In this document: positions 6,351 through 50,983 of the stretch, piece after piece | How positions within the stretch are numbered: the stretch's first letter is position 1 | How the letters are laid out: each line of letters opens with the position of its first letter | Source of the DNA: Naegleria gruberi | Lineage: Eukaryota | Assembly (NCBI GenBank): GCA_000004985.1 | Contig: GG738891.1 | Reading direction: 5' to 3' (one strand) | Length of the DNA: 64,000 nt | Notes under the pieces: generated by a model | What the model was told of the DNA's origin: nothing | Database searches by the model: none | Seen by the model: the letters and a program-made list of their open reading frames with translations, nothing else | Translations under genes and position numbers: made by a program

Positions 6351-6484
6351 TTTTTTTTGAAATTAGAAACTTAAGTTTATGTAGTTTACAATGAAGAATG
6401 GTCCCTGCCATGAAAAATTGGATAGTAATTGCAATTGTTAGTTTTTGGAGTCATCTTAATTTTATTTTAACAAAGAAACAAAAA

Positions 6485-6602
6485 GACTACAGCACCACAG
6501 GTTCCCAAGTTGTCTCCAACCTCAGTACTGATGTGGCTCGACGATGCTTAACTTCTCAAATCGGACGGGATGAGGTGCATTCATCGTGATATGGCCGTAG
6601 CC
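6485..6602 (-). rRNA. 5S ribosomal RNA
   Basis: The minus strand reads GGCTACGGCCATATCACGATGAATGCACCTCATCCCGTCCGATTTGAGAAGTTAAGCATCGTCGAGCCACATCAGTACTGAGGTTGGAGACAACTTGGGAACCTGTGGTGCTGTAGTC, followed by TTTTT. It is colinear with the eukaryotic 5S consensus (GCCTACGGCCATACC..CCGATCTCGTCTGATCTCGGAAGCTAAGC..AGTACTTGGATGGGAGACC..GGGTGCTGTAGGC). The 5' and 3' ends pair as helix I. Confidence 0.9.
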
Positions 6603-6793: not shown

Positions 6794-6866
6794 TGCCGAC
6801 ACCAGGGATCGAACCAGGGACCTTAAGATCTTCAGTCTTACGCTCTCCCAACTGAGCTATGTCGGC
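6794..6866 (-). tRNA. tRNA-Phe (GAA)
   Basis: The minus strand reads GCCGACATAGCTCAGTTGGGAGAGCGTAAGACTGAAGATCTTAAGGTCCCTGGTTCGATCCCTGGTGTCGGCA. The 7-bp acceptor stem is perfect, the anticodon loop is CTGAAGA and the T-loop is TTCGATC. There is one T:T mismatch in the T-stem. A TTTTT terminator follows. Confidence 0.9.
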
Positions 6867-15657: not shown

Positions 15658-15728
15658 TCGGGTGTGGTATAGTGGTAGCATTCCAGACTGTCACTCTGGC
15701 GACCCGGGTTCAATTCCCGGCACTCGAG
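15658..15728 (+). tRNA. tRNA-Asp (GUC)
   Basis: The sequence is TCGGGTGTGGTATAGTGGTAGCATTCCAGACTGTCACTCTGGCGACCCGGGTTCAATTCCCGGCACTCGAG. The acceptor stem pairs TCGGGTG with CACTCGA, the anticodon stem is CCAGA/TCTGG with loop CTGTCAC, and the T-arm is CCGGG-TTCAATT-CCCGG. A T-run lies shortly downstream. Confidence 0.9.
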
Positions 15729-39662: not shown

Positions 39663-41558
39663 TCACTTGTATGAAATTTCTTTCATATCAAAGCTAGTAT
39701 TGATAAAGTCAATGATGTTCTTCTGAGTGTTTGTAATCAAGTGAGATTTACCTTGCATTGTGGTAATTCTAGATCTAAAGTCTCGTTCATCGAGTGATAA
39801 GTTCAGAATGGCATCTAAATTTAACAATAAATCAGAAGTATAGTCTTCCAAACGAGATAGATGGTCATTAAATAAATAACCATAGGTCTCTAACATTAAA
39901 AATTCCTTCTCTGACTTTTTGGTTGTGTTAAATTTGATTTTGAGTGTGTCAAATCCGAAATGAATGTAAGCAAATGCATAACATGAACGTAAGAGTCTTC
40001 TACATCTGTAGATATTTCTGAAAGAGTCGAGAAGGAATTTGAGATCCTTGGTTGGTCTAATATGGAAAAACTTTTCCTTATAATTTGCAATTTCGAGTCG
40101 ATAGTGACCTGTTCGTTTATGTTCCTCCAACCATTGATTGTGTCTTCTGTATAATGAGACGAATCTTCCATAAAGTTCTTCTGCTGCAGAGAATAATTTA
40201 ATATCTTCAGATGTTTTCACTGTCTTTGGAGCACAAACTGTTTCAGCATGAACGTAGGATGTATACTCTGAACCACACTATCGATGAAGAATCAAAACTA
40301 AACTCTCTTTGATGATGATACTTACAATATAACAAAATTCATGTCCACAAACACAATTAATGTGATTACATCCAACATCCTTAAATATAATTCTTTTACA
40401 CTTGTTACATTGTTGACTTGTTCTGTGAATAAACTCTTTCGATGCAAAATCATCCTGAGCAATAGTCAAGAATCTCTTATACACATCACATGAGCATGGG
40501 AAGTGAGGATCCTTATCACATTGGAAGCAACACTCTTCACCACACTTGCATTGAGCAATGTACAAACTTTCATCACATAGTTTCTTGATTGCATAGGGAC
40601 CATCACAGCCTGGATTAGGACACCACTTTAGTCTGTAACTTGAACCCACATATGAATCAATCTTTCTCTGGAAAAACTTTTCAAATAATTCCTTATCTTC
40701 CTTTGGATCCAATTGTGACAACATAAATGTCTCAGTAAGTGTAGTCTTACATGAATAGTCCATACACTTTACAGTATTATCATTCATTGCTGTTTTGACA
40801 TGATTGACAATATATTCCTTCCAACAAGTTCTACAGAAAACATGTCCACACATATCATATGCGTACAATGGAACATCATCTGAATAACAAGCATCACATG
40901 TGCCAATTGTTGAAGATGAACATGATTTTTTGAAATCTGGATTGAGTCCACACTTGGTTAATAAAGCATCCAATCCCAAATCACCATAATCTCTAATTAA
41001 TTTCTCTGTATTCCACTGATATTCCTTCAACATACATTCCACAAATACTTTACTCTTCAATTGAAGAGTTTCAGCTGCTGTCTTTACTTCTGCCTCTTGA
41101 TCTTGCAATAATTCCTTTGTATCAAGTACCTTGTACAATTCTCCTTTTGTTTTAAATTCCCTCGTCTTGACAACTTCTACAAAGGCAGATTCGTCCACTT
41201 GTTCACCAATATCATCATCAAAGTAATGTTCTTCTCCTACTATATCATCTTCATTGTATTCAATTTCCTCCTCCTCTTCATAATTTTCCTCTTCATGATC
41301 ATGATGATCACAACCACATTCCGGCGTCTCGTGCTCTTCTTCCTTCTCTTCATCATCAATTGAAGCTTCCAATAAATCACCATTCTCCTCACACATCTGA
41401 ATGACAGTCTCTATGGCAAGAGCCTCATCTAAATTACAATCCAAAACCACTTGATGGAGTGTTTGGAGGCTAATACTGGGAAAGAGTTCGTTCAATGAGA
41501 GAACGATTGCTTTTATTTTTTCCTTTCGTTTGTCCTTCTCGGATTGTTGTTGACTCAT
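39663..41558 (-). CDS. RBR (RING-IBR-RING) E3 ubiquitin ligase, Ariadne-like (2 exons)
   Basis: Exon 1 is 40326..41558. The intron is 40278..40325 (48 nt, GTAAGT..TAG, phase 0). Exon 2 is 39663..40277. RING1 is CDACYSDDVPLYAYDMCGHVFCRTCWKEY. The IBR is WCPNPGCDGPYAI...CKCGEECCFQCDKDPHFPCSC. RING2 is CNKCKRIIFKDVGCNHINCVCGHEFCYI-CGSEY and spans the splice site. A helical Ariadne-type C-terminus follows. Confidence 0.8.
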
Positions 41559-41750
41559 TTTTTTATTTTGTTGATTTCTACGCTGTTTGTTTTCGAAATT
41601 GAAGTTGAGATGCTGAAAGTTCTTTGATAATGAAAAACAAACAAGAGTACTAAGTTACAAAAAAGGAAAACTTAAAAGGAAAGGGGACCAGTGGGAATCG
41701 AACCCACGGCCTCTCGCACCCAAAGCGAGAATCATACCACTAATTTTTAT

Positions 41751-41825
41751 GAAAGGGATTTGTGAAGAAGGGATCTGTGAGGAAGGGATCCGTTACAAAA
41801 GGGATTCATTGAGAATGTGTTAGTT
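41751..41825 (+). repeat. GGGAT-core ~16-bp tandem array 1 (4 intact + 1 degenerate unit)
   Basis: GGGAT cores lie at 41755, 41770, 41785 and 41801, followed by a GTGTTAGTT variant. The array is preceded by ATTTTTA. Confidence 0.85.
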
Positions 41826-42241
41826 ACTTTCGAATATTTAATTGAAATTTGATCTATATTAAAAAAAATTGCGGAAGGGGTAGTCTCTTTTTTGAAATTA
41901 ATAAAAATATACAATTTTGAAAATTAAAAATCAAGTTTTTTTATTGTTATTTGATGTTTGATTATTTTCTGTAAATTGATTAATTTCACATTTTCTATTA
42001 TGACAATAATGTGAATAATTAACACTTTTTGATGGTTTGTAATTTTGATTCATTTTCTTTTTTAAAATTTAATCTCATTCTAATTTTTAAAAATGTAATT
42101 GTTCATATTATTAAAATGTTATTTTTCTATTTACAATAAATTATTCTATCTCTCTTGAATATTTTTAATAATTGTAAATTTTCTAAAAAAAGGAAATAGA
42201 TAATATTCAATTAAATCCCTTCTAATTTTAAATTTTTTTTT

Positions 42242-42335
42242 GAGAAAGGGATTTGTGAGGAAGGGATTCATTGCAAAAGGGATCCGTTCTGAAAGGGATT
42301 CATTGAAAAATGGATTCATTATGGATGTGATAGTT
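42242..42335 (+). repeat. GGGAT-core ~16-bp tandem array 2 (4 intact + 2 degenerate units)
   Basis: GGGAT cores lie at 42248, 42263, 42279 and 42295. TGGAT variants lie at 42311 and 42322. The array is preceded by T9. Confidence 0.85.
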
Positions 42336-42403
42336 TCAAATTTTAATTAATAATATAAAATTAACACAATATTTATTCTATTTATATACATTTCTTTTTT
42401 TGG

Positions 42404-42510
42404 TAATGGATTTCATTGCAAAAGGGATCCGTTAAAGAAGGGATTCATTACAGAAGGGATCTGTTACAAAAGGGATTCATTGTAAACGTGTTTCATTGAG
42501 AAAGTGTTTC
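42404..42510 (+). repeat. GGGAT-core ~16-bp tandem array 3 (4 intact + 3 degenerate units), abutting the right TSD
   Basis: A TGGAT variant lies at 42407. GGGAT cores lie at 42424, 42440, 42456 and 42472, followed by CGTGTTTCATT and AAGTGTTTC variants. The array is preceded by T7. Confidence 0.85.
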
Positions 42511-42787
42511 TACCACTAGACCATGGTCCCTTACGTTTAAAATCCATTATATTTAAAATTGGTGCCTATAATACGGACTACATCTATTTTCCTTGTGTGA
42601 TTCATTACAAAAGGATGGCTATTCAAAACTTTAGAAGGTTACAATTTTAAATGTACTTTGCATGTTACTCACTATTTTTAGTGTCCCAATAGATTTCACT
42701 CACATTCTATTGAAGGTGTTGTGAAAAAAAAAGCACCAACAACCAATACCTTTACTAATCGCTCACTGCCAGCAGTTCATTACCAAC

Positions 42788-43789
42788 ATGTTTACCTTCG
42801 AAGACGAAGAAGCTGAACAAGGTTTTCCATTTGAAAACTCAACCCCAGAGCAAATTATTAACCATCTACAAACTCATGACCATCCTGAAACAATCATCAA
42901 TTCTCAACAAGTGCTTATCATGGCTGTTGAGAATTGTAAAGATTGTTATGAACAGGGAGAAGAGGAAGACTACGTGGAATGGTTCAAATTATGTGAATAT
43001 TTAACATCCAAAAGTGGAGTTAATATTAATGTTTGTAGATGTATTGAAGATGACTATGATTATCCATTATCAATTGCCATTGAATCGTGCGATTTAAAAT
43101 TGATAGAATTGATACTCTCTCATGGAGCTGATCCAAATAATGGAGCTGGTTTCAGATGTAGAAATGTAATGATTAACCTTGCAATTCAAGAAGGATCGAT
43201 GGATATTTTGAAATTATTGCTAAAATATGGAGCTGATGTCAACAAATTCAATACAGTGCATTGTGGAAGATTCTCTCCATGGAATTGTGCCTATTCGAAT
43301 CAAGAGTTTGAAATATTGGATTTTCTCCTAAATCTTCCAAATATTTCTCTAAAGAATTCAAGAATTTTTCATGAAGCTTCTGCGAATGGAGATGTGAAAA
43401 TGGTTGAATTATTAATTAAGAATCATTTTCCAATTTTGGATTTGAATCATGGTAATTATTCAACTCCATTATTTGAAGCATGTAAGGGACAATTCGTTGA
43501 AGTTGTGAAATTACTTGTTCCTCTGCCAGGAATTGACATTAATTTGGGAAGCTATTCTGGAAGAATGGAAACACCTTTACAAAATGCAATTCGAAATTCA
43601 AATATTGAAATTGTCAGTTTGCTAATTTCACACGGAGCCATATTTACAGAATCTGATAGTTTGGAAGCACATAATAATGCAGGTATCAATCTTTATCAAA
43701 TCAAACTTCAAACACAACCAGTTTCGCAACTTCAAAAATTGCTACATTCTAACCTTGCACTTTCTGACACCACATTCGAATATCAATAA
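42788..43789 (+). CDS. ankyrin-repeat protein (333 aa)
   Basis: Repeated ankyrin signatures are present (LIELILSHGADPNNG; MDILKLLLKYGADVNKF; TPLFEACKGQFVEVVKLLV; TPLQNAIRNSNIEIVSLLISHGA). Confidence 0.75.
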   Translation: MFTFEDEEAEQGFPFENSTPEQIINHLQTHDHPETIINSQQVLIMAVENCKDCYEQGEEEDYVEWFKLCEYLTSKSGVNINVCRCIEDDYDYPLSIAIESCDLKLIELILSHGADPNNGAGFRCRNVMINLAIQEGSMDILKLLLKYGADVNKFNTVHCGRFSPWNCAYSNQEFEILDFLLNLPNISLKNSRIFHEASANGDVKMVELLIKNHFPILDLNHGNYSTPLFEACKGQFVEVVKLLVPLPGIDINLGSYSGRMETPLQNAIRNSNIEIVSLLISHGAIFTESDSLEAHNNAGINLYQIKLQTQPVSQLQKLLHSNLALSDTTFEYQ

Positions 43790-49282: not shown

Positions 49283-50983
49283 ATGTTGTCATCATCATCG
49301 GGTGCTGATAATAACAACAAAAGCAGTAATAATAATAATAATAATAGAATGGATAATAGTACTAATAGCAATTGTAGCAACAACAACAACAGTAGCAACA
49401 GTAGCAATAATGTTGGTTTGGGAGGTTCTGGTAGTGCTCTGAAGGGATCGGAGGAGAAGAAGAAACAACAGGCTCCTATTAAAATTCTCAAGAAGAATGA
49501 TTTTAGACAGGATAATGATGAAGAGTTTTCAATGAGTCCAAAGTTAGTTACGAGAGGAGTTTTATCAGTTAAAATTCCACCTGCTAATGTTAATAGTAAT
49601 AATGGATCTCCCCTCCCTTCATATAAGAAGAGTTCAGCCTCGCCTTCAGCATCTTCACCACCAGCATCAGAATTATCTAAAGCTTTAGTATCATCGGAAG
49701 ATCATGATGGTCAAAGTCCATCACCAACAACATCTTCTTCTTATGAGGAGCAAGGAATTGCTGAAAATCATTTTATATTTCTTCCGAATCATAATGAATT
49801 GTTTAATCACTTTGCATTAGATATTGGTGGATCACTTGTCAAGATGGTTTACATGTTACCTTTTAGTGATAATGAATTTATTTATCAAACTCAAGATTCT
49901 GAAAGTAATGAACTTGAAGCTTATTATCATCAAGCTGTTAGTAGTGATGATGAAGAGGTTGATGGACAATTATCCATAAAATCACTTCCTCCACAATCAC
50001 CATTAATCATTTCAAAGGATGTTGATCATTTTTATGAATCTGAAAATGGTGTTAAAAAGAGAGGTTCTAAACTTTGTTTTGCTAGATTCCAAACACAAGA
50101 TATTGAACAATGTTTGAGTTTAATTGAAAAGTTACTGAAATTAGATGAATCAATAACTGGTTCATCAGAAGCTCCTTGTATTAAACATATTAATGCTACT
50201 GGTGGAGGTGCATTCAAGTTTTCAGCACTATTGAAAAATAGATTTGGTTTTGAAGTTAACAAGCTAGATGAAATGGAATCATTGATTAAGGGGTTAAACT
50301 TTTTATTGTTAAATATTCCAAATGAATCATTTACATTCACAAAGGAAAAGAAGAGAGAATACCTTTCTTTCCATGACAAGTTACATACAGATATTTTCCC
50401 ATATTTAATTGTAAATATTGGAAGTGGTGTGAGTATTGTTAGAGTTGATGATGTTGGTAAATTTGAAAGAGTTTCGGGAAGCAGTATTGGTGGAGGTACC
50501 TTCTGGGGTTTATCAAAATTATTAACAGGTTGTAATTCATTTGAGGAATTGTTGAAATTAACCAAGACTGGTGACAACAAAAAGGTTGACATGTTAGTTG
50601 GTGATATTTACGGAAGAGATTATGAAAAAATTGGTTTGAATTCTGATATTATTGCTAGTAGTTTCGGTAAAATGATTCAGTACAAAGCTGGAGAAGGTGA
50701 AGAACCAAAAGATGCCGATCTTGCTAAATCTTTATTATTTATGATTTGTAACAATATTGGTCAAATTGCCTATCTTAATGCTCTCAGATTTGGCCTTAAA
50801 AGAATATTTTTTGCTGGTTACTTTATCAGAAATCACGATGTCACAATGCACTACATTTCCTATGCCATCAACTTTTGGTCTAGGGGTGAAATTTCTGCCA
50901 CTTTTTTGAGACATGAAGGTTATTTGGGAGCAATTGGTTCCTTCCTTTCATCTCCTCAAAAAGATTCAGAAAATTCTGAATAA
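49283..50983 (+). CDS. PANK: pantothenate kinase, eukaryotic type II (fumble family)
   Basis: The N-terminus is low-complexity N/S-rich. The kinase region reads FALDIGGSLVKMVY...INATGGGAFKF...YLIVNIGSGVSIVRVDDVGKFERVSGSSIGGGTFWGLSKLLTG...VDMLVGDIYG...IASSFGK...IFFAGYFIRNH..TMHYISYAINFWSRGEISATFLRHEGYLGAIG. Confidence 0.85.
   Translation: MLSSSSGADNNNKSSNNNNNNRMDNSTNSNCSNNNNSSNSSNNVGLGGSGSALKGSEEKKKQQAPIKILKKNDFRQDNDEEFSMSPKLVTRGVLSVKIPPANVNSNNGSPLPSYKKSSASPSASSPPASELSKALVSSEDHDGQSPSPTTSSSYEEQGIAENHFIFLPNHNELFNHFALDIGGSLVKMVYMLPFSDNEFIYQTQDSESNELEAYYHQAVSSDDEEVDGQLSIKSLPPQSPLIISKDVDHFYESENGVKKRGSKLCFARFQTQDIEQCLSLIEKLLKLDESITGSSEAPCIKHINATGGGAFKFSALLKNRFGFEVNKLDEMESLIKGLNFLLLNIPNESFTFTKEKKREYLSFHDKLHTDIFPYLIVNIGSGVSIVRVDDVGKFERVSGSSIGGGTFWGLSKLLTGCNSFEELLKLTKTGDNKKVDMLVGDIYGRDYEKIGLNSDIIASSFGKMIQYKAGEGEEPKDADLAKSLLFMICNNIGQIAYLNALRFGLKRIFFAGYFIRNHDVTMHYISYAINFWSRGEISATFLRHEGYLGAIGSFLSSPQKDSENSE

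What the first reader, a model, noticed from the sequence alone, without database searches (positions are those of the whole stretch)
41751..42510. Three same-orientation, phased arrays of a ~16-bp GGGAT-core repeat organise the insertion into T-run + array + AT-rich-spacer modules
GGGAT cores on the + strand lie at 41755, 41770, 41785 and 41801. A second group lies at 42248, 42263, 42279 and 42295, followed by TGGAT at 42311 and 42322. A third group has TGGAT at 42407, then GGGAT at 42424, 42440, 42456 and 42472. Spacing is 15-17 bp with approximate consensus RAAGGGATYYRTTNNN. Each array is preceded by a T-run (ATTTTTA, T9, T7) and decays at its 3' side into GTGTT/GTGAT variants. Arrays 1 and 2 begin with nearly the same 25 nt (GAAAGGGATTTGTGA[A/G]GAAGGGAT). 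The sequences after them are alignable (GTGTTAGTTACTTTCGAATATTTAATTGAAAT versus GTGATAGTTTCAAATTTTAATTAATAAT). The element therefore looks like 2-3 tandem modules with spacers of unequal length (~420 bp between arrays 1 and 2, ~70 bp between arrays 2 and 3). Twelve intact phased copies of a short core, all in one orientation, resemble arrays of binding sites for a sequence-specific protein such as transposase or recombinase subterminal sites or iteron-like sites. They do not look like coding or random low-complexity sequence.
Basis: seen in the sequence. Interest (0 to 1): 0.6.

Follow-up and report, generated by a model that had tools for sequence, protein, structure and literature searches.

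The report
Repeat-ended mobile insertion splitting a tRNA gene
The three GGGAT repeat arrays are real and form the ends of a 768-base non-coding mobile insertion that split a proline tRNA gene in the amoeba Naegleria gruberi, but the element matches no known transposon family and no second copy could be found.

Summary
The window is Naegleria gruberi nuclear DNA. The arrays lie inside a 768-bp, 24% GC, non-coding insertion (41743-42510). It splits a tRNA-Pro(UGG) gene on the minus strand at D-loop nucleotides 13-20 and is flanked by a perfect 8-bp target duplication (TACCACTA). Removing it restores a canonical 72-nt tRNA.

The unit is AAGGGATYYRTK plus 3-5 variable bases, with a period of 15-17 bp and a 32-bp higher order. 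Twelve of the 15 AAGGGAT copies in the 64-kb window lie in the element. The three arrays are colinear cassettes, 75-81% identical, and each follows a T-run. Array 1 starts 9 bp from the left end. Array 3 runs flush to the right end.

There are no terminal inverted repeats, no ORF above 57 aa, and no PBS-like TGG start beside the arrays. The spacers after the arrays are not significantly alignable. One inverted core copy exists.

No second copy was found in the window or in any searchable collection. The N. gruberi genome itself could not be searched.

Best reading: the arrays are cis-acting end cassettes of a non-autonomous element without inverted repeats. hAT, Dada, LTR/TRIM and IS607 each fail at least one defining feature that was tested. 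A retroposon origin remains a serious rival.

The parts
41683..41742 (-). 3' portion of the split tRNA-Pro(UGG) gene (tRNA nt 13-72), including the left copy of the target duplication
   Evidence: Rfam tRNA partial match at 41689-41749, 28.4 bits. Joined with 42519-42530 it folds as a 72-nt tRNA-Pro(tgg) in ARAGORN. Numbering.
41735..41742 (.). Left copy of the 8-bp target-site duplication, TACCACTA
   Evidence: Identical octamer at 42511-42518. Flanking bases differ on both sides, so the boundaries are unambiguous.
41743..42510 (.). The inserted element: 768 bp, 24% GC, non-coding, no terminal inverted repeats
   Evidence: Length and GC. Longest ORF is 57 aa. The left end against the reverse complement of the right end scores no better than shuffles.
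41744..41829 (+). Cassette 1: T5 run, four AAGGGAT units (cores at 41755, 41770, 41785, 41801) and a GTGTTAGTTAC tail. It begins 9 bp from the left end.
41830..42232 (.). AT-rich interior (17% GC, against 23-33% in neighbouring intergenic DNA); no significant internal homology to the shorter spacer
42212..42222 (-). Single inverted copy of the core (AGAAGGGATTT on the minus strand), 20 bp upstream of cassette 2
   Evidence: Minus-strand hit at 42210-42222. About 0.03 such hits are expected in 768 bp. Only a 9-11 nt match.
42233..42338 (+). Cassette 2: T9 run, four AAGGGAT units (42248, 42263, 42279, 42295), two TGGAT units (42311, 42322) and a GTGATAGTTTC tail
42339..42394 (.). Short spacer, 9% GC
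42395..42510 (+). Cassette 3: T7 run, one TGGAT unit (42407), four AAGGGAT units (42424, 42440, 42456, 42472) and two GTGTT units (42488, 42504). It ends flush with the right end of the element, inside a unit.
42511..42530 (-). 5' portion of the split tRNA-Pro(UGG) gene (tRNA nt 1-20). Its first 8 plus-strand bases (42511-42518) are the right copy of the target duplication.

Best explanation
The arrays are the end cassettes of a 768-bp non-autonomous mobile element that inserted into the D-loop/A-box of a tRNA-Pro(UGG) gene of Naegleria gruberi. The insertion went in at cuts staggered by 8 bp, or at an 8-bp crossover core, and inactivated the gene.

Each cassette is a T-run followed by 4-7 phased copies of AAGGGATYYRTK. 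I take the cassettes to be the cis-acting sites where a mobilising protein, supplied in trans, binds cooperatively as a multimer or filament. One platform sits at the left end (cassette 1). A double platform sits at the right end (cassettes 2 and 3).

The sites point the same way at both ends and there are no terminal inverted repeats. The enzyme is therefore unlikely to be a classical symmetric DDE transposase. It is more likely an asymmetric-end system. Candidates are a Dada-like DDE without inverted repeats, or a recombinase acting on a circular form. In such a circle, cassettes 2-3, the 8-bp core and cassette 1 would form one continuous attP-like site.

Shown: the insertion, the duplication, the split tRNA, the cassette architecture, the absence of inverted repeats and of coding capacity.
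Inferred: mobility as a family, protein binding, a DNA rather than RNA intermediate, and the enzyme class.
For: Organism: an ORF in the window is 100% identical to N. gruberi pantothenate kinase.

Insertion: a perfect 8-bp duplication TACCACTA flanks the element. Excising 768 bp plus one copy restores a canonical 72-nt tRNA-Pro(tgg) with an intact acceptor stem. Rfam detects the tRNA part.

Foreign character: the interior is 17% GC and the spacer 9% GC, against 23-33% in local intergenic DNA.

Cassettes: 12 of the window's 15 AAGGGAT copies are here. The motif hits 17 times against 2.6 expected. The three arrays are colinear and 75-81% identical. A T-run precedes all three (chance about 0.001). 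Cassette 1 starts 9 bp from the left end and cassette 3 is flush with the right end.

Motif-like conservation: AA, GGGAT and T(+8) are invariant in 12 units, and indels occur only in the spacers.

Other points: no inverted repeats and no ORF above 57 aa. Published precedents exist for multi-site, same-direction end binding without inverted repeats (IS607 TnpA filament, PMC6188088) and for DNA transposons without inverted repeats inside tRNA A-boxes, including in a protist (Dada, PMC3706591 and PMC8869645).
Against: Only one copy is known. Nothing related was found in the rest of the window, in viral, metagenome or prokaryote contigs, in plasmids or phages, or in protein space. A repeated family is therefore unproven.

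No candidate enzyme gene lies in the window. The invariance of GGGAT is partly circular, because units were recognised by it, and the units are related by descent. Degenerate units at array edges are what passive tandem arrays also show.

On the minus strand every cassette is followed by an A-run, which fits retroposon 3' ends at least as well. No inverted core-type sites flank the 8-bp core, as a tyrosine recombinase site would usually have; this was judged by reading and was not formally tested.
Confidence: 0.4

Rival explanations
1. Retroposon made by target-primed reverse transcription, with the minus strand as the sense strand. Each cassette read on the minus strand is a 3' end: a 16-nt repeat array followed by an A-run (A7, A9, A5). 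The element would be three head-to-tail units with progressively longer 5' parts (0, about 56 and about 400 nt of body). They would be joined by RT template jumping from the 5' end of one RNA to the poly(A) end of the next. The whole is flanked by a single 8-bp duplication.
For: There are no inverted repeats. The duplication has a length compatible with TPRT. A homopolymer run adjoins all three cassettes (chance about 0.001). All cassettes point the same way. On the minus strand the element starts inside a repeat unit, as a 5' truncation would. There is no coding capacity, as in SINE-like or deleted LINE derivatives.
Against: The terminal A-run is only A5 and is interrupted (ATAAAAAT), although the duplication and tRNA halves are pristine and so the insertion is young. 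The about 56-nt body of the middle unit is not significantly similar to the array-proximal part of the long body. No tRNA-, 5S- or 7SL-like head or any Rfam family was found in the element. No RT gene lies in the window. Sixteen-nt units are much longer than the 3-8 nt tail repeats I recall for non-LTR elements (own knowledge).
Confidence: 0.28
2. The element is mobile or was inserted, but the arrays are passive. A 16/32-bp minisatellite cassette was duplicated twice inside the element by slippage or unequal exchange and has no binding role.
For: Degenerate units (TGGAT, GTGTT, GTGAT) sit at array edges, as in arrays homogenised by unequal exchange. A 32-bp higher-order period is present. No protein partner or second copy was found.
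Against: The cassettes have defined starts (T-run plus a shared 25-nt block in cassettes 1 and 2) and defined ends (a block about 88% identical in cassettes 1 and 3). They sit at both termini of the insertion. The spacer varies freely while 8 of 12 motif positions are invariant.
Confidence: 0.15
3. Non-autonomous member of the Dada superfamily. These are DNA transposons without inverted repeats that insert specifically into tRNA and snRNA genes.
For: It lies inside a tRNA gene in the A-box region, has no inverted repeats, and the orientation is defined. Dada occurs in protists (Perkinsus) and has internally deleted derivatives.
Against: The duplication is 8 bp at tRNA nt 13-20, not 6-7 bp at nt 8-13 or the anticodon stem. 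No 7-9 bp subterminal inverted repeat shared with the target was found; only a 6-nt ATGAAA, at chance level. Dada is not listed for Naegleria. Phased arrays are not described for Dada in the passages read.
Confidence: 0.1
4. Not a transposable element. Filler DNA was captured during repair of a staggered break in the tRNA gene, or the structure is an assembly artefact.
For: Only one copy is known. A related environmental strain's contigs end at this tRNA, so the filled state could not be confirmed independently.
Against: A clean 8-bp duplication with exact restoration of the tRNA is the signature of enzymatic staggered cleavage. The insert has an organised cassette structure at both ends. The contig breaks in the environmental assembly are what a multicopy tRNA gene would cause.
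Confidence: 0.05
5. Iteron-type replication origin: direct repeats next to AT-rich DNA that bind an initiator.
For: Phased direct repeats lie next to a 17% GC stretch.
Against: It is a chromosomal insertion with a target duplication in a eukaryotic nucleus. No Rep-like gene was found. There is no match to plasmid or phage records.
Confidence: 0.02

Closest known systems
Dada superfamily (DNA transposons without inverted repeats that target tRNA, snRNA and 5S genes; Kojima and Jurka 2013, PMC3706591; PMC8869645)
   Same: It is inserted inside a tRNA gene within the Pol III A-box region. It has no terminal inverted repeats and a short target duplication. The family occurs in protists, and non-autonomous deletion derivatives exist.
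   Different: Dada makes 6-7 bp duplications at tRNA nt 8-13 or the anticodon stem; here the duplication is 8 bp at nt 13-20. Dada has short subterminal inverted repeats mirrored in the target; none was found here. Phased 16-bp arrays are not described for Dada in the passages read. No Dada transposase could be looked for in N. gruberi.
hAT elements and their MITEs (Ac/Ds, Hermes) with subterminal transposase-binding repeats
   Same: An 8-bp target duplication. Many short subterminal repeats that bind transposase, extending about 100-250 bp from the ends. Small non-coding derivatives.
   Different: hAT elements have terminal inverted repeats, and their subterminal repeats occur in both orientations. 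The TSD consensus nTnnnnAn (own knowledge) is not matched by TACCACTA or TAGTGGTA. Here there are no inverted repeats and 12 of 13 cores point one way.
IS607-family serine-recombinase transposons (PMC6188088)
   Same: No terminal inverted repeats. Both ends carry short directly repeated motifs, on which transposase dimers assemble cooperatively into a filament.
   Different: IS607 makes no target duplication and exchanges at a GG dinucleotide. Here a perfect 8-bp duplication flanks the element and the termini are AT...TC. The comparison is functional only.
Non-LTR retroposons and SINE-like elements with repeat-bearing 3' ends
   Same: No inverted repeats, a duplication of compatible length, an A-run after each cassette on the minus strand, an apparent 5' truncation, and head-to-tail arrangement.
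   Different: The A-tail is very short in an apparently young insertion. The units are 16 nt rather than 3-8 nt. No Pol III-type head is present. The bodies of the putative tandem units are not demonstrably homologous.
attP-type sites of tyrosine-recombinase integrative elements, and eukaryotic Cryptons (own knowledge)
   Same: A tRNA gene as target. A short identical core repeated on both sides of the integrated element. Arrays of arm-type sites on both sides of the core once the ends are joined in a circle. No inverted repeats.
   Different: No recombinase gene was found, and no inverted core-type sites were seen around the 8-bp core. Such miniature elements are not known in eukaryotes. None of this could be tested here.
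LTR-type miniature elements (TRIM/SMART)
   Same: Direct repeats of about 90-115 bp at both ends of an element under 1 kb.
   Different: There are no TG...CA termini and no PBS-like TGG start beside the end repeats; a polypurine tract was not looked for. The duplication is 8 bp rather than 4-6 bp. A third internal repeat copy is present.

Membership tests
hAT superfamily (MITE derivative) | 8-bp target-site duplication | tested here: met
   TACCACTA at 41735-41742 and 42511-42518.
hAT superfamily (MITE derivative) | Terminal inverted repeats | tested here: not met
   The left 30 or 80 nt against the reverse complement of the right 30 or 80 nt gives only a 6-nt match, no better than shuffles.
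hAT superfamily (MITE derivative) | TSD consensus nTnnnnAn (own knowledge) | tested here: not met
   TACCACTA and TAGTGGTA have A at position 2 and T at position 7.
Dada superfamily | Insertion inside a multicopy small-RNA gene | tested here: met
   It splits tRNA-Pro(UGG).
Dada superfamily | No terminal inverted repeats | tested here: met
   the family feature is.
Dada superfamily | 6-7 bp TSD at tRNA nt 8-13 or the anticodon stem | tested here: not met
   The duplication is 8 bp at nt 13-20.
Dada superfamily | Short subterminal inverted repeats also present in the target gene | tested here: not met
   The only inverted match is ATGAAA/TTTCAT at unequal distances from the ends, at chance level.
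Dada superfamily | Dada DDE transposase in an autonomous relative in the same genome | not testable with these tools
   The N. gruberi assembly could not be reached. No transposase lies in the window.
Non-LTR retroposon / SINE | 3' poly(A) or simple-repeat tail abutting the TSD | tested here: inconclusive
   The minus-strand 3' end is ...CATAAAAAT, A5 only. The plus-strand 3' end is a 16-nt repeat array.
Non-LTR retroposon / SINE | Internal Pol III promoter head (tRNA-, 5S- or 7SL-derived), for SINEs | tested here: not met
   An Rfam E-value scan of 41400-42800 finds only the host tRNA fragment.
Non-LTR retroposon / SINE | Copies with a constant 3' end and variable 5' truncation | not testable with these tools
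   No second copy is available.
LTR-type miniature element (TRIM) | TG...CA termini, a primer-binding site next to the 5' repeat, and a 4-6 bp TSD | tested here: not met
   The termini are AT...TC. No TGG-initiated PBS follows either end repeat on either strand. The duplication is 8 bp. All read.
IS607 family (serine recombinase) | Directly repeated subterminal motifs at both ends, without terminal inverted repeats | tested here: met
   the family feature is.
IS607 family (serine recombinase) | No target-site duplication; GG crossover dinucleotide at the termini | tested here: not met
   There is a perfect 8-bp duplication and no terminal GG.
Plasmid-type iteron origin | Phased direct repeats next to an AT-rich region | tested here: met
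Plasmid-type iteron origin | A cognate Rep initiator gene and an extrachromosomal replicon | tested here: not met
   It is a chromosomal insertion with a target duplication. No Rep-like ORF was found. No plasmid or phage match was found.
Tyrosine-recombinase integrative element / Crypton-like | Recombinase gene in an autonomous partner; a circular intermediate carrying the 8-bp core | not testable with these tools
   This needs the whole genome and an experiment. Only the architecture is compatible: core flanked by arrays once the ends are joined, tRNA target, no inverted repeats.

The most novel reading that the evidence does not exclude
The element is a miniature integrative cassette. When its ends are joined, cassettes 2-3, the 8-bp core TACCACTA and cassette 1 form one continuous attP-like site. 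About 17 same-orientation arm-type sites would then flank a crossover core identical to the D-loop octamer shared by several tRNA genes. It would be mobilised in trans by a site-specific recombinase, or by an unknown asymmetric-end transposase, that targets tRNA genes in a heterolobosean. That would be a eukaryotic counterpart of prokaryotic tRNA-integrating elements and a new class of transposon.
Probability: 0.1. Interest if true: 0.75.

Novelty: new variant of a known kind. Interest (0 to 1): 0.4.

Why it matters
If the cassettes prove to be the working ends of a family, this would be a transposon type without inverted repeats whose two ends carry recognition arrays pointing the same way, and which lands inside a tRNA gene. 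That combination fits none of the standard eukaryotic superfamilies as tested here. It would point to an unusual mobilising enzyme in Naegleria. [quoted passage not shown] Elements that target tRNA genes are also of practical interest as safe-harbour integration systems. If it is instead a one-off or an ordinary retroposon, it is simply a disrupted tRNA gene, of interest only for annotation.

Tried and rejected
1. Terminal inverted repeats: ends compared with shuffle controls; none found.
2. Homology of the AT-rich spacers after arrays 1 and 2: not significant.
3. Other copies in the window: blastn with word size 7 and nhmmer on the masked window gave only low-identity AT-rich noise.
4. Collection scans with one- and two-unit patterns:
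   - Viral contigs: 0 hits, then 1 chance hit.
   - Metagenome contigs: 113 stretches, all single chance hits or unrelated tandem repeats such as L042, L044 and L014.
   - Genome contigs: 59 single chance hits.
5. Plasmid and phage BLAST: nothing relevant.
6. Reaching N. gruberi DNA through exact-protein look-ups: four window ORFs plus P0001 are not on record.
7. Empty-site test:
   - A 99%-identical Ariadne protein from an environmental sample (ERR1078381) gave contigs that stop at or 28 nt inside the tRNA 3' end, so they are uninformative.
   - The ankyrin gene on the other side has no relative there.
   - The N. lovaniensis syntenic region has no tRNA.
8. Protein-space search with the 57-aa ORF spanning cassette 2: one chance hit to a protease repeat.
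9. Rfam: no ribozyme or other RNA family in the element; the GIR1 and XIST hits are far below threshold.
10. RNA folding of either strand: z-scores of -3.0 and -1.7, with no discrete conserved structure to interpret.
11. A sub-element bounded by the inverted core at 42212-42222: only a 9-nt match, rejected as an inverted repeat.
12. Similarity of flanking DNA to the units: 42599-42629 reached p about 0.04 before correction for four tests, so it is not accepted.
13. Literature searches for the unit sequence and for Naegleria transposons: nothing on this element.
Full report
**What the window is.** The ORF at 49283-50983 is 100% identical to a predicted pantothenate kinase of Naegleria gruberi on a 339-kb contig. 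The neighbouring ORFs are ordinary eukaryotic host genes: Ariadne-type RBR ligase, ankyrin, alanine racemase, HEATR5, SF-assemblin and others. GC content is about 29-41% throughout. None of the 30 ORFs scanned against Pfam resembles a transposase, recombinase or reverse transcriptase.

**Check of the observation.**
Successive spacings are 15-17 bp, except for one 11-bp step at the decaying end of array 2.
- The degenerate 13-mer with one mismatch hits 17 times in the window against 2.6 expected; none of 100 shuffles reached 17. Fourteen of the hits fall in 41752-42481.
- AAGGGAT occurs 15 times in 64 kb, 12 of them here, which is about 300-fold denser than in the rest of the window.
- Tandem Repeats Finder reports periods of 15-16 and, with better scores, 32 bp. 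This reflects alternating GGGATTCATT and GGGATCYGTT units.
- In the 12 intact units the motif is AAGGGATYYRTK. The AA before the core and the T at +8 are invariant and were not used to find the units. The spacer of 3-5 nt varies freely, and all length variation lies there.
- The T-runs (T5, T9, T7) are real. Such a run lies just upstream of about 10% of positions in this AT-rich DNA, so three out of three is about 0.001 by chance.

**Corrections to the observation.**
- One core copy is inverted (AGAAGGGATTT, minus strand, 42212-42222).
- The AT-rich sequences after arrays 1 and 2 are not significantly alignable beyond about 19 nt.
- The arrays are colinear copies of one cassette, 75-81% identical. 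Cassettes 1 and 2 share a start block. Cassettes 1 and 3 share an end block that is about 88% identical by my count from the alignment.

**What surrounds the arrays.**
- The sequence left of 41743 is the 3' part of a tRNA gene on the minus strand, and the sequence right of 42510 is its 5' part. The octamer TACCACTA is present at both junctions, at 41735-41742 and 42511-42518. The bases outside it differ, so the boundaries are unambiguous.
- Deleting 41743-42510 and one octamer gives a 72-nt tRNA-Pro(tgg) with a perfect 7-bp acceptor stem. Rfam independently detects the 3' part.
- The duplication corresponds to tRNA nucleotides 13-20. By standard tRNA numbering that is the D-loop, inside the A box of the Pol III promoter. 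The gene is therefore inactivated.
- The same octamer is present, unoccupied, in the tRNA-Asp gene at 15658-15728.
- The insertion is 768 bp and 24% GC. Its interior is 17% GC and its short spacer 9% GC, well below the 23-33% of nearby intergenic DNA. Its longest ORF is 57 aa.
- The duplication is perfect and the restored tRNA folds canonically, so the insertion looks young. That is an inference.

**Anatomy of the element.** From left to right it contains:
1. Nine bases including a T5 run.
2. Cassette 1, with 4 units and a GTGTT tail.
3. About 400 bp of very AT-rich DNA, ending with the single inverted core.
4. A T9 run and cassette 2, with 4 intact and 2 degenerate units.
5. A 56-bp spacer.
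6. A T7 run and cassette 3, with 1 degenerate, 4 intact and 2 degenerate units. It ends inside a unit, exactly at the right boundary.

There are no terminal inverted repeats. The left end against the reverse complement of the right end gives only a 6-nt match, which 43 of 500 (30-nt ends) and 332 of 500 (80-nt ends) shuffles equal or exceed.

**Search for relatives.**
- Nothing related is present in the remaining 63 kb of the window.
- Nothing related is present in IMG/VR contigs, JGI/ENA metagenome contigs (the multi-hit loci are unrelated tandem repeats) or GTDB prokaryote genomes.
- Plasmid and phage records give nothing.
- A 57-aa ORF across cassette 2, searched against 1.84 billion proteins, gave only a chance hit.
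- The N. gruberi assembly itself could not be reached.
- An environmental strain with a 99%-identical Ariadne protein has the tRNA 3' end at the same place, but its contigs stop there. The N. lovaniensis syntenic region has no tRNA.
- So copy number, polymorphism and the existence of an autonomous partner remain unknown. This is the main limit of the analysis.

**Mechanism.** Three things are shown: an insertion with an 8-bp target duplication, organised cassettes at both ends, and no inverted repeats or coding capacity. From this I infer a non-autonomous mobile element whose cassettes are its cis-acting ends.

The invariant 8 of 12 motif positions, the free spacers and the regular 16/32-bp phasing fit cooperative binding of a protein multimer. 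Thirty-two bp is about three helical turns, so like units would face the same side of the helix. This is the best-supported reading (confidence about 0.4), but binding is untested. The conservation argument is also weakened by ascertainment on GGGAT and by the common descent of the units.

Same-orientation sites at both ends argue against a classical symmetric DDE transpososome. They are compatible with two alternatives:
- Filament-type end recognition, as in IS607 TnpA.
- A recombinase acting on a circular form. In the circle, cassettes 2-3, the 8-bp core and cassette 1 would make one attP-like site.

**The strongest rival (about 0.28)** reads the minus strand as sense. Each cassette is then followed by an A-run, the element begins within a unit, and the three cassettes look like head-to-tail 3' ends joined by RT template jumping under one duplication. 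Four points count against it:
- The terminal A-run is only A5.
- The units are 16 nt long.
- There is no Pol III-type head.
- The two bodies show no demonstrable homology. At 9-17% GC and about 78% cassette identity, though, this last test has little power.

**Other rivals.** Passive minisatellite cassettes (about 0.15), Dada membership (about 0.1), repair filler or assembly artefact (about 0.05) and an iteron origin (about 0.02) are listed with their evidence.

**Comparison with known families.**
- hAT shares the 8-bp duplication and subterminal binding repeats. It fails on inverted repeats and, from my own knowledge of the family, on the TSD consensus.
- Dada shares the tRNA A-box target, the lack of inverted repeats and a protist distribution. 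It fails on duplication length and position (6-7 bp at nt 8-13, against 8 bp at nt 13-20) and on subterminal inverted repeats.
- IS607 shares the end architecture without inverted repeats and with direct repeats. It makes no duplication.
- LTR/TRIM fails on termini, primer-binding site and duplication length.
- SINE/non-LTR is neither met nor excluded.
- The element therefore works like a transposon with multi-site ends, but it cannot be filed in any of these families on present evidence.

**Verdict.** The insertion and the terminal placement of the arrays are solid. The modular-spacer idea and the single-orientation claim need correction. The binding-site function is plausible but untested.

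Novelty: a new variant of a known kind, namely a non-autonomous mobile element with an atypical end architecture and a tRNA-internal target. Interest is moderate (0.4). One genome-wide search, which these tools could not run, would either raise it substantially or reduce it to an ordinary retroposon or a one-off insertion.

Noticed in passing
window 6484-6602 (-) and 6794-6866 (-): A 5S rRNA gene (Rfam 105 bits) lies about 190 bp from a tRNA-Phe(GAA) gene on the same strand, forming a small Pol III gene cluster.
   Followed up: no
window 15658-15728 (+): The D-loop of tRNA-Asp(GTC) contains the same octamer TAGTGGTA that was duplicated at the tRNA-Pro insertion, but it is unoccupied. The target octamer is therefore shared by several tRNA families.
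   Followed up: partly
window 42599-42629 (+): About 80 bp beyond the right duplication, in the tRNA's upstream region, GATTCATTACAAAAGGATGGCTATTCAAAA aligns with 1.5-2 units of cassette 3 in the same orientation. Eleven of 300 shuffles score as well, which is not significant after four tests. It could be a relic of an older copy or chance.
   Followed up: partly
window 42527-42558 (+): Two 16-bp tandem units, TCCCTTACGTTTAAAA and TCCATTATATTTAAAA, start in the 5' end of the tRNA. Read on the minus strand they give TAATGGATTT...AAGGGACC, which shares a 10-mer with the start of cassette 3. The tRNA's own GGGACCATGG loosely resembles GGGATTCATTG. The similarity is not statistically supported.
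   Followed up: partly
window 42212-42222 (-): A single inverted copy of the repeat core lies 20 bp before cassette 2. With the first unit of that cassette it forms an 11-nt imperfect inverted repeat around the T9 run.
   Followed up: partly
window 39663-40220 and 40278-41558 (-): The Ariadne-type RBR ligase is split into two ORFs 57 bp apart, probably by a short intron. The same two-ORF arrangement occurs in the environmental contig L115.
   Followed up: no
L115 / L116 (ENA ERZ929261, Logan ERR1078381): A metagenome contains a close relative of N. gruberi: 99% protein identity, visibly diverged intergenic DNA, and the same gene order to the left of the tRNA. Its contigs end at or 28 nt inside the tRNA-Pro 3' end. 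Raw reads from this run could show whether that strain has the insertion.
   Followed up: partly
L014 2560-2700 (-): An unrelated metagenome contig carries AAGGGATTCATTGTTT in three direct and several inverted copies. The 12-nt core resembles the Naegleria unit, but the context shows no other similarity, so it is probably coincidence selected by the search pattern.
   Followed up: partly
window 41743-42510, minus strand: Every unit carries CCCTT on the minus strand. From my own knowledge this is the pentamer recognised by poxvirus-type topoisomerase IB. It is noted only as an idea and there is no supporting evidence.
   Followed up: no
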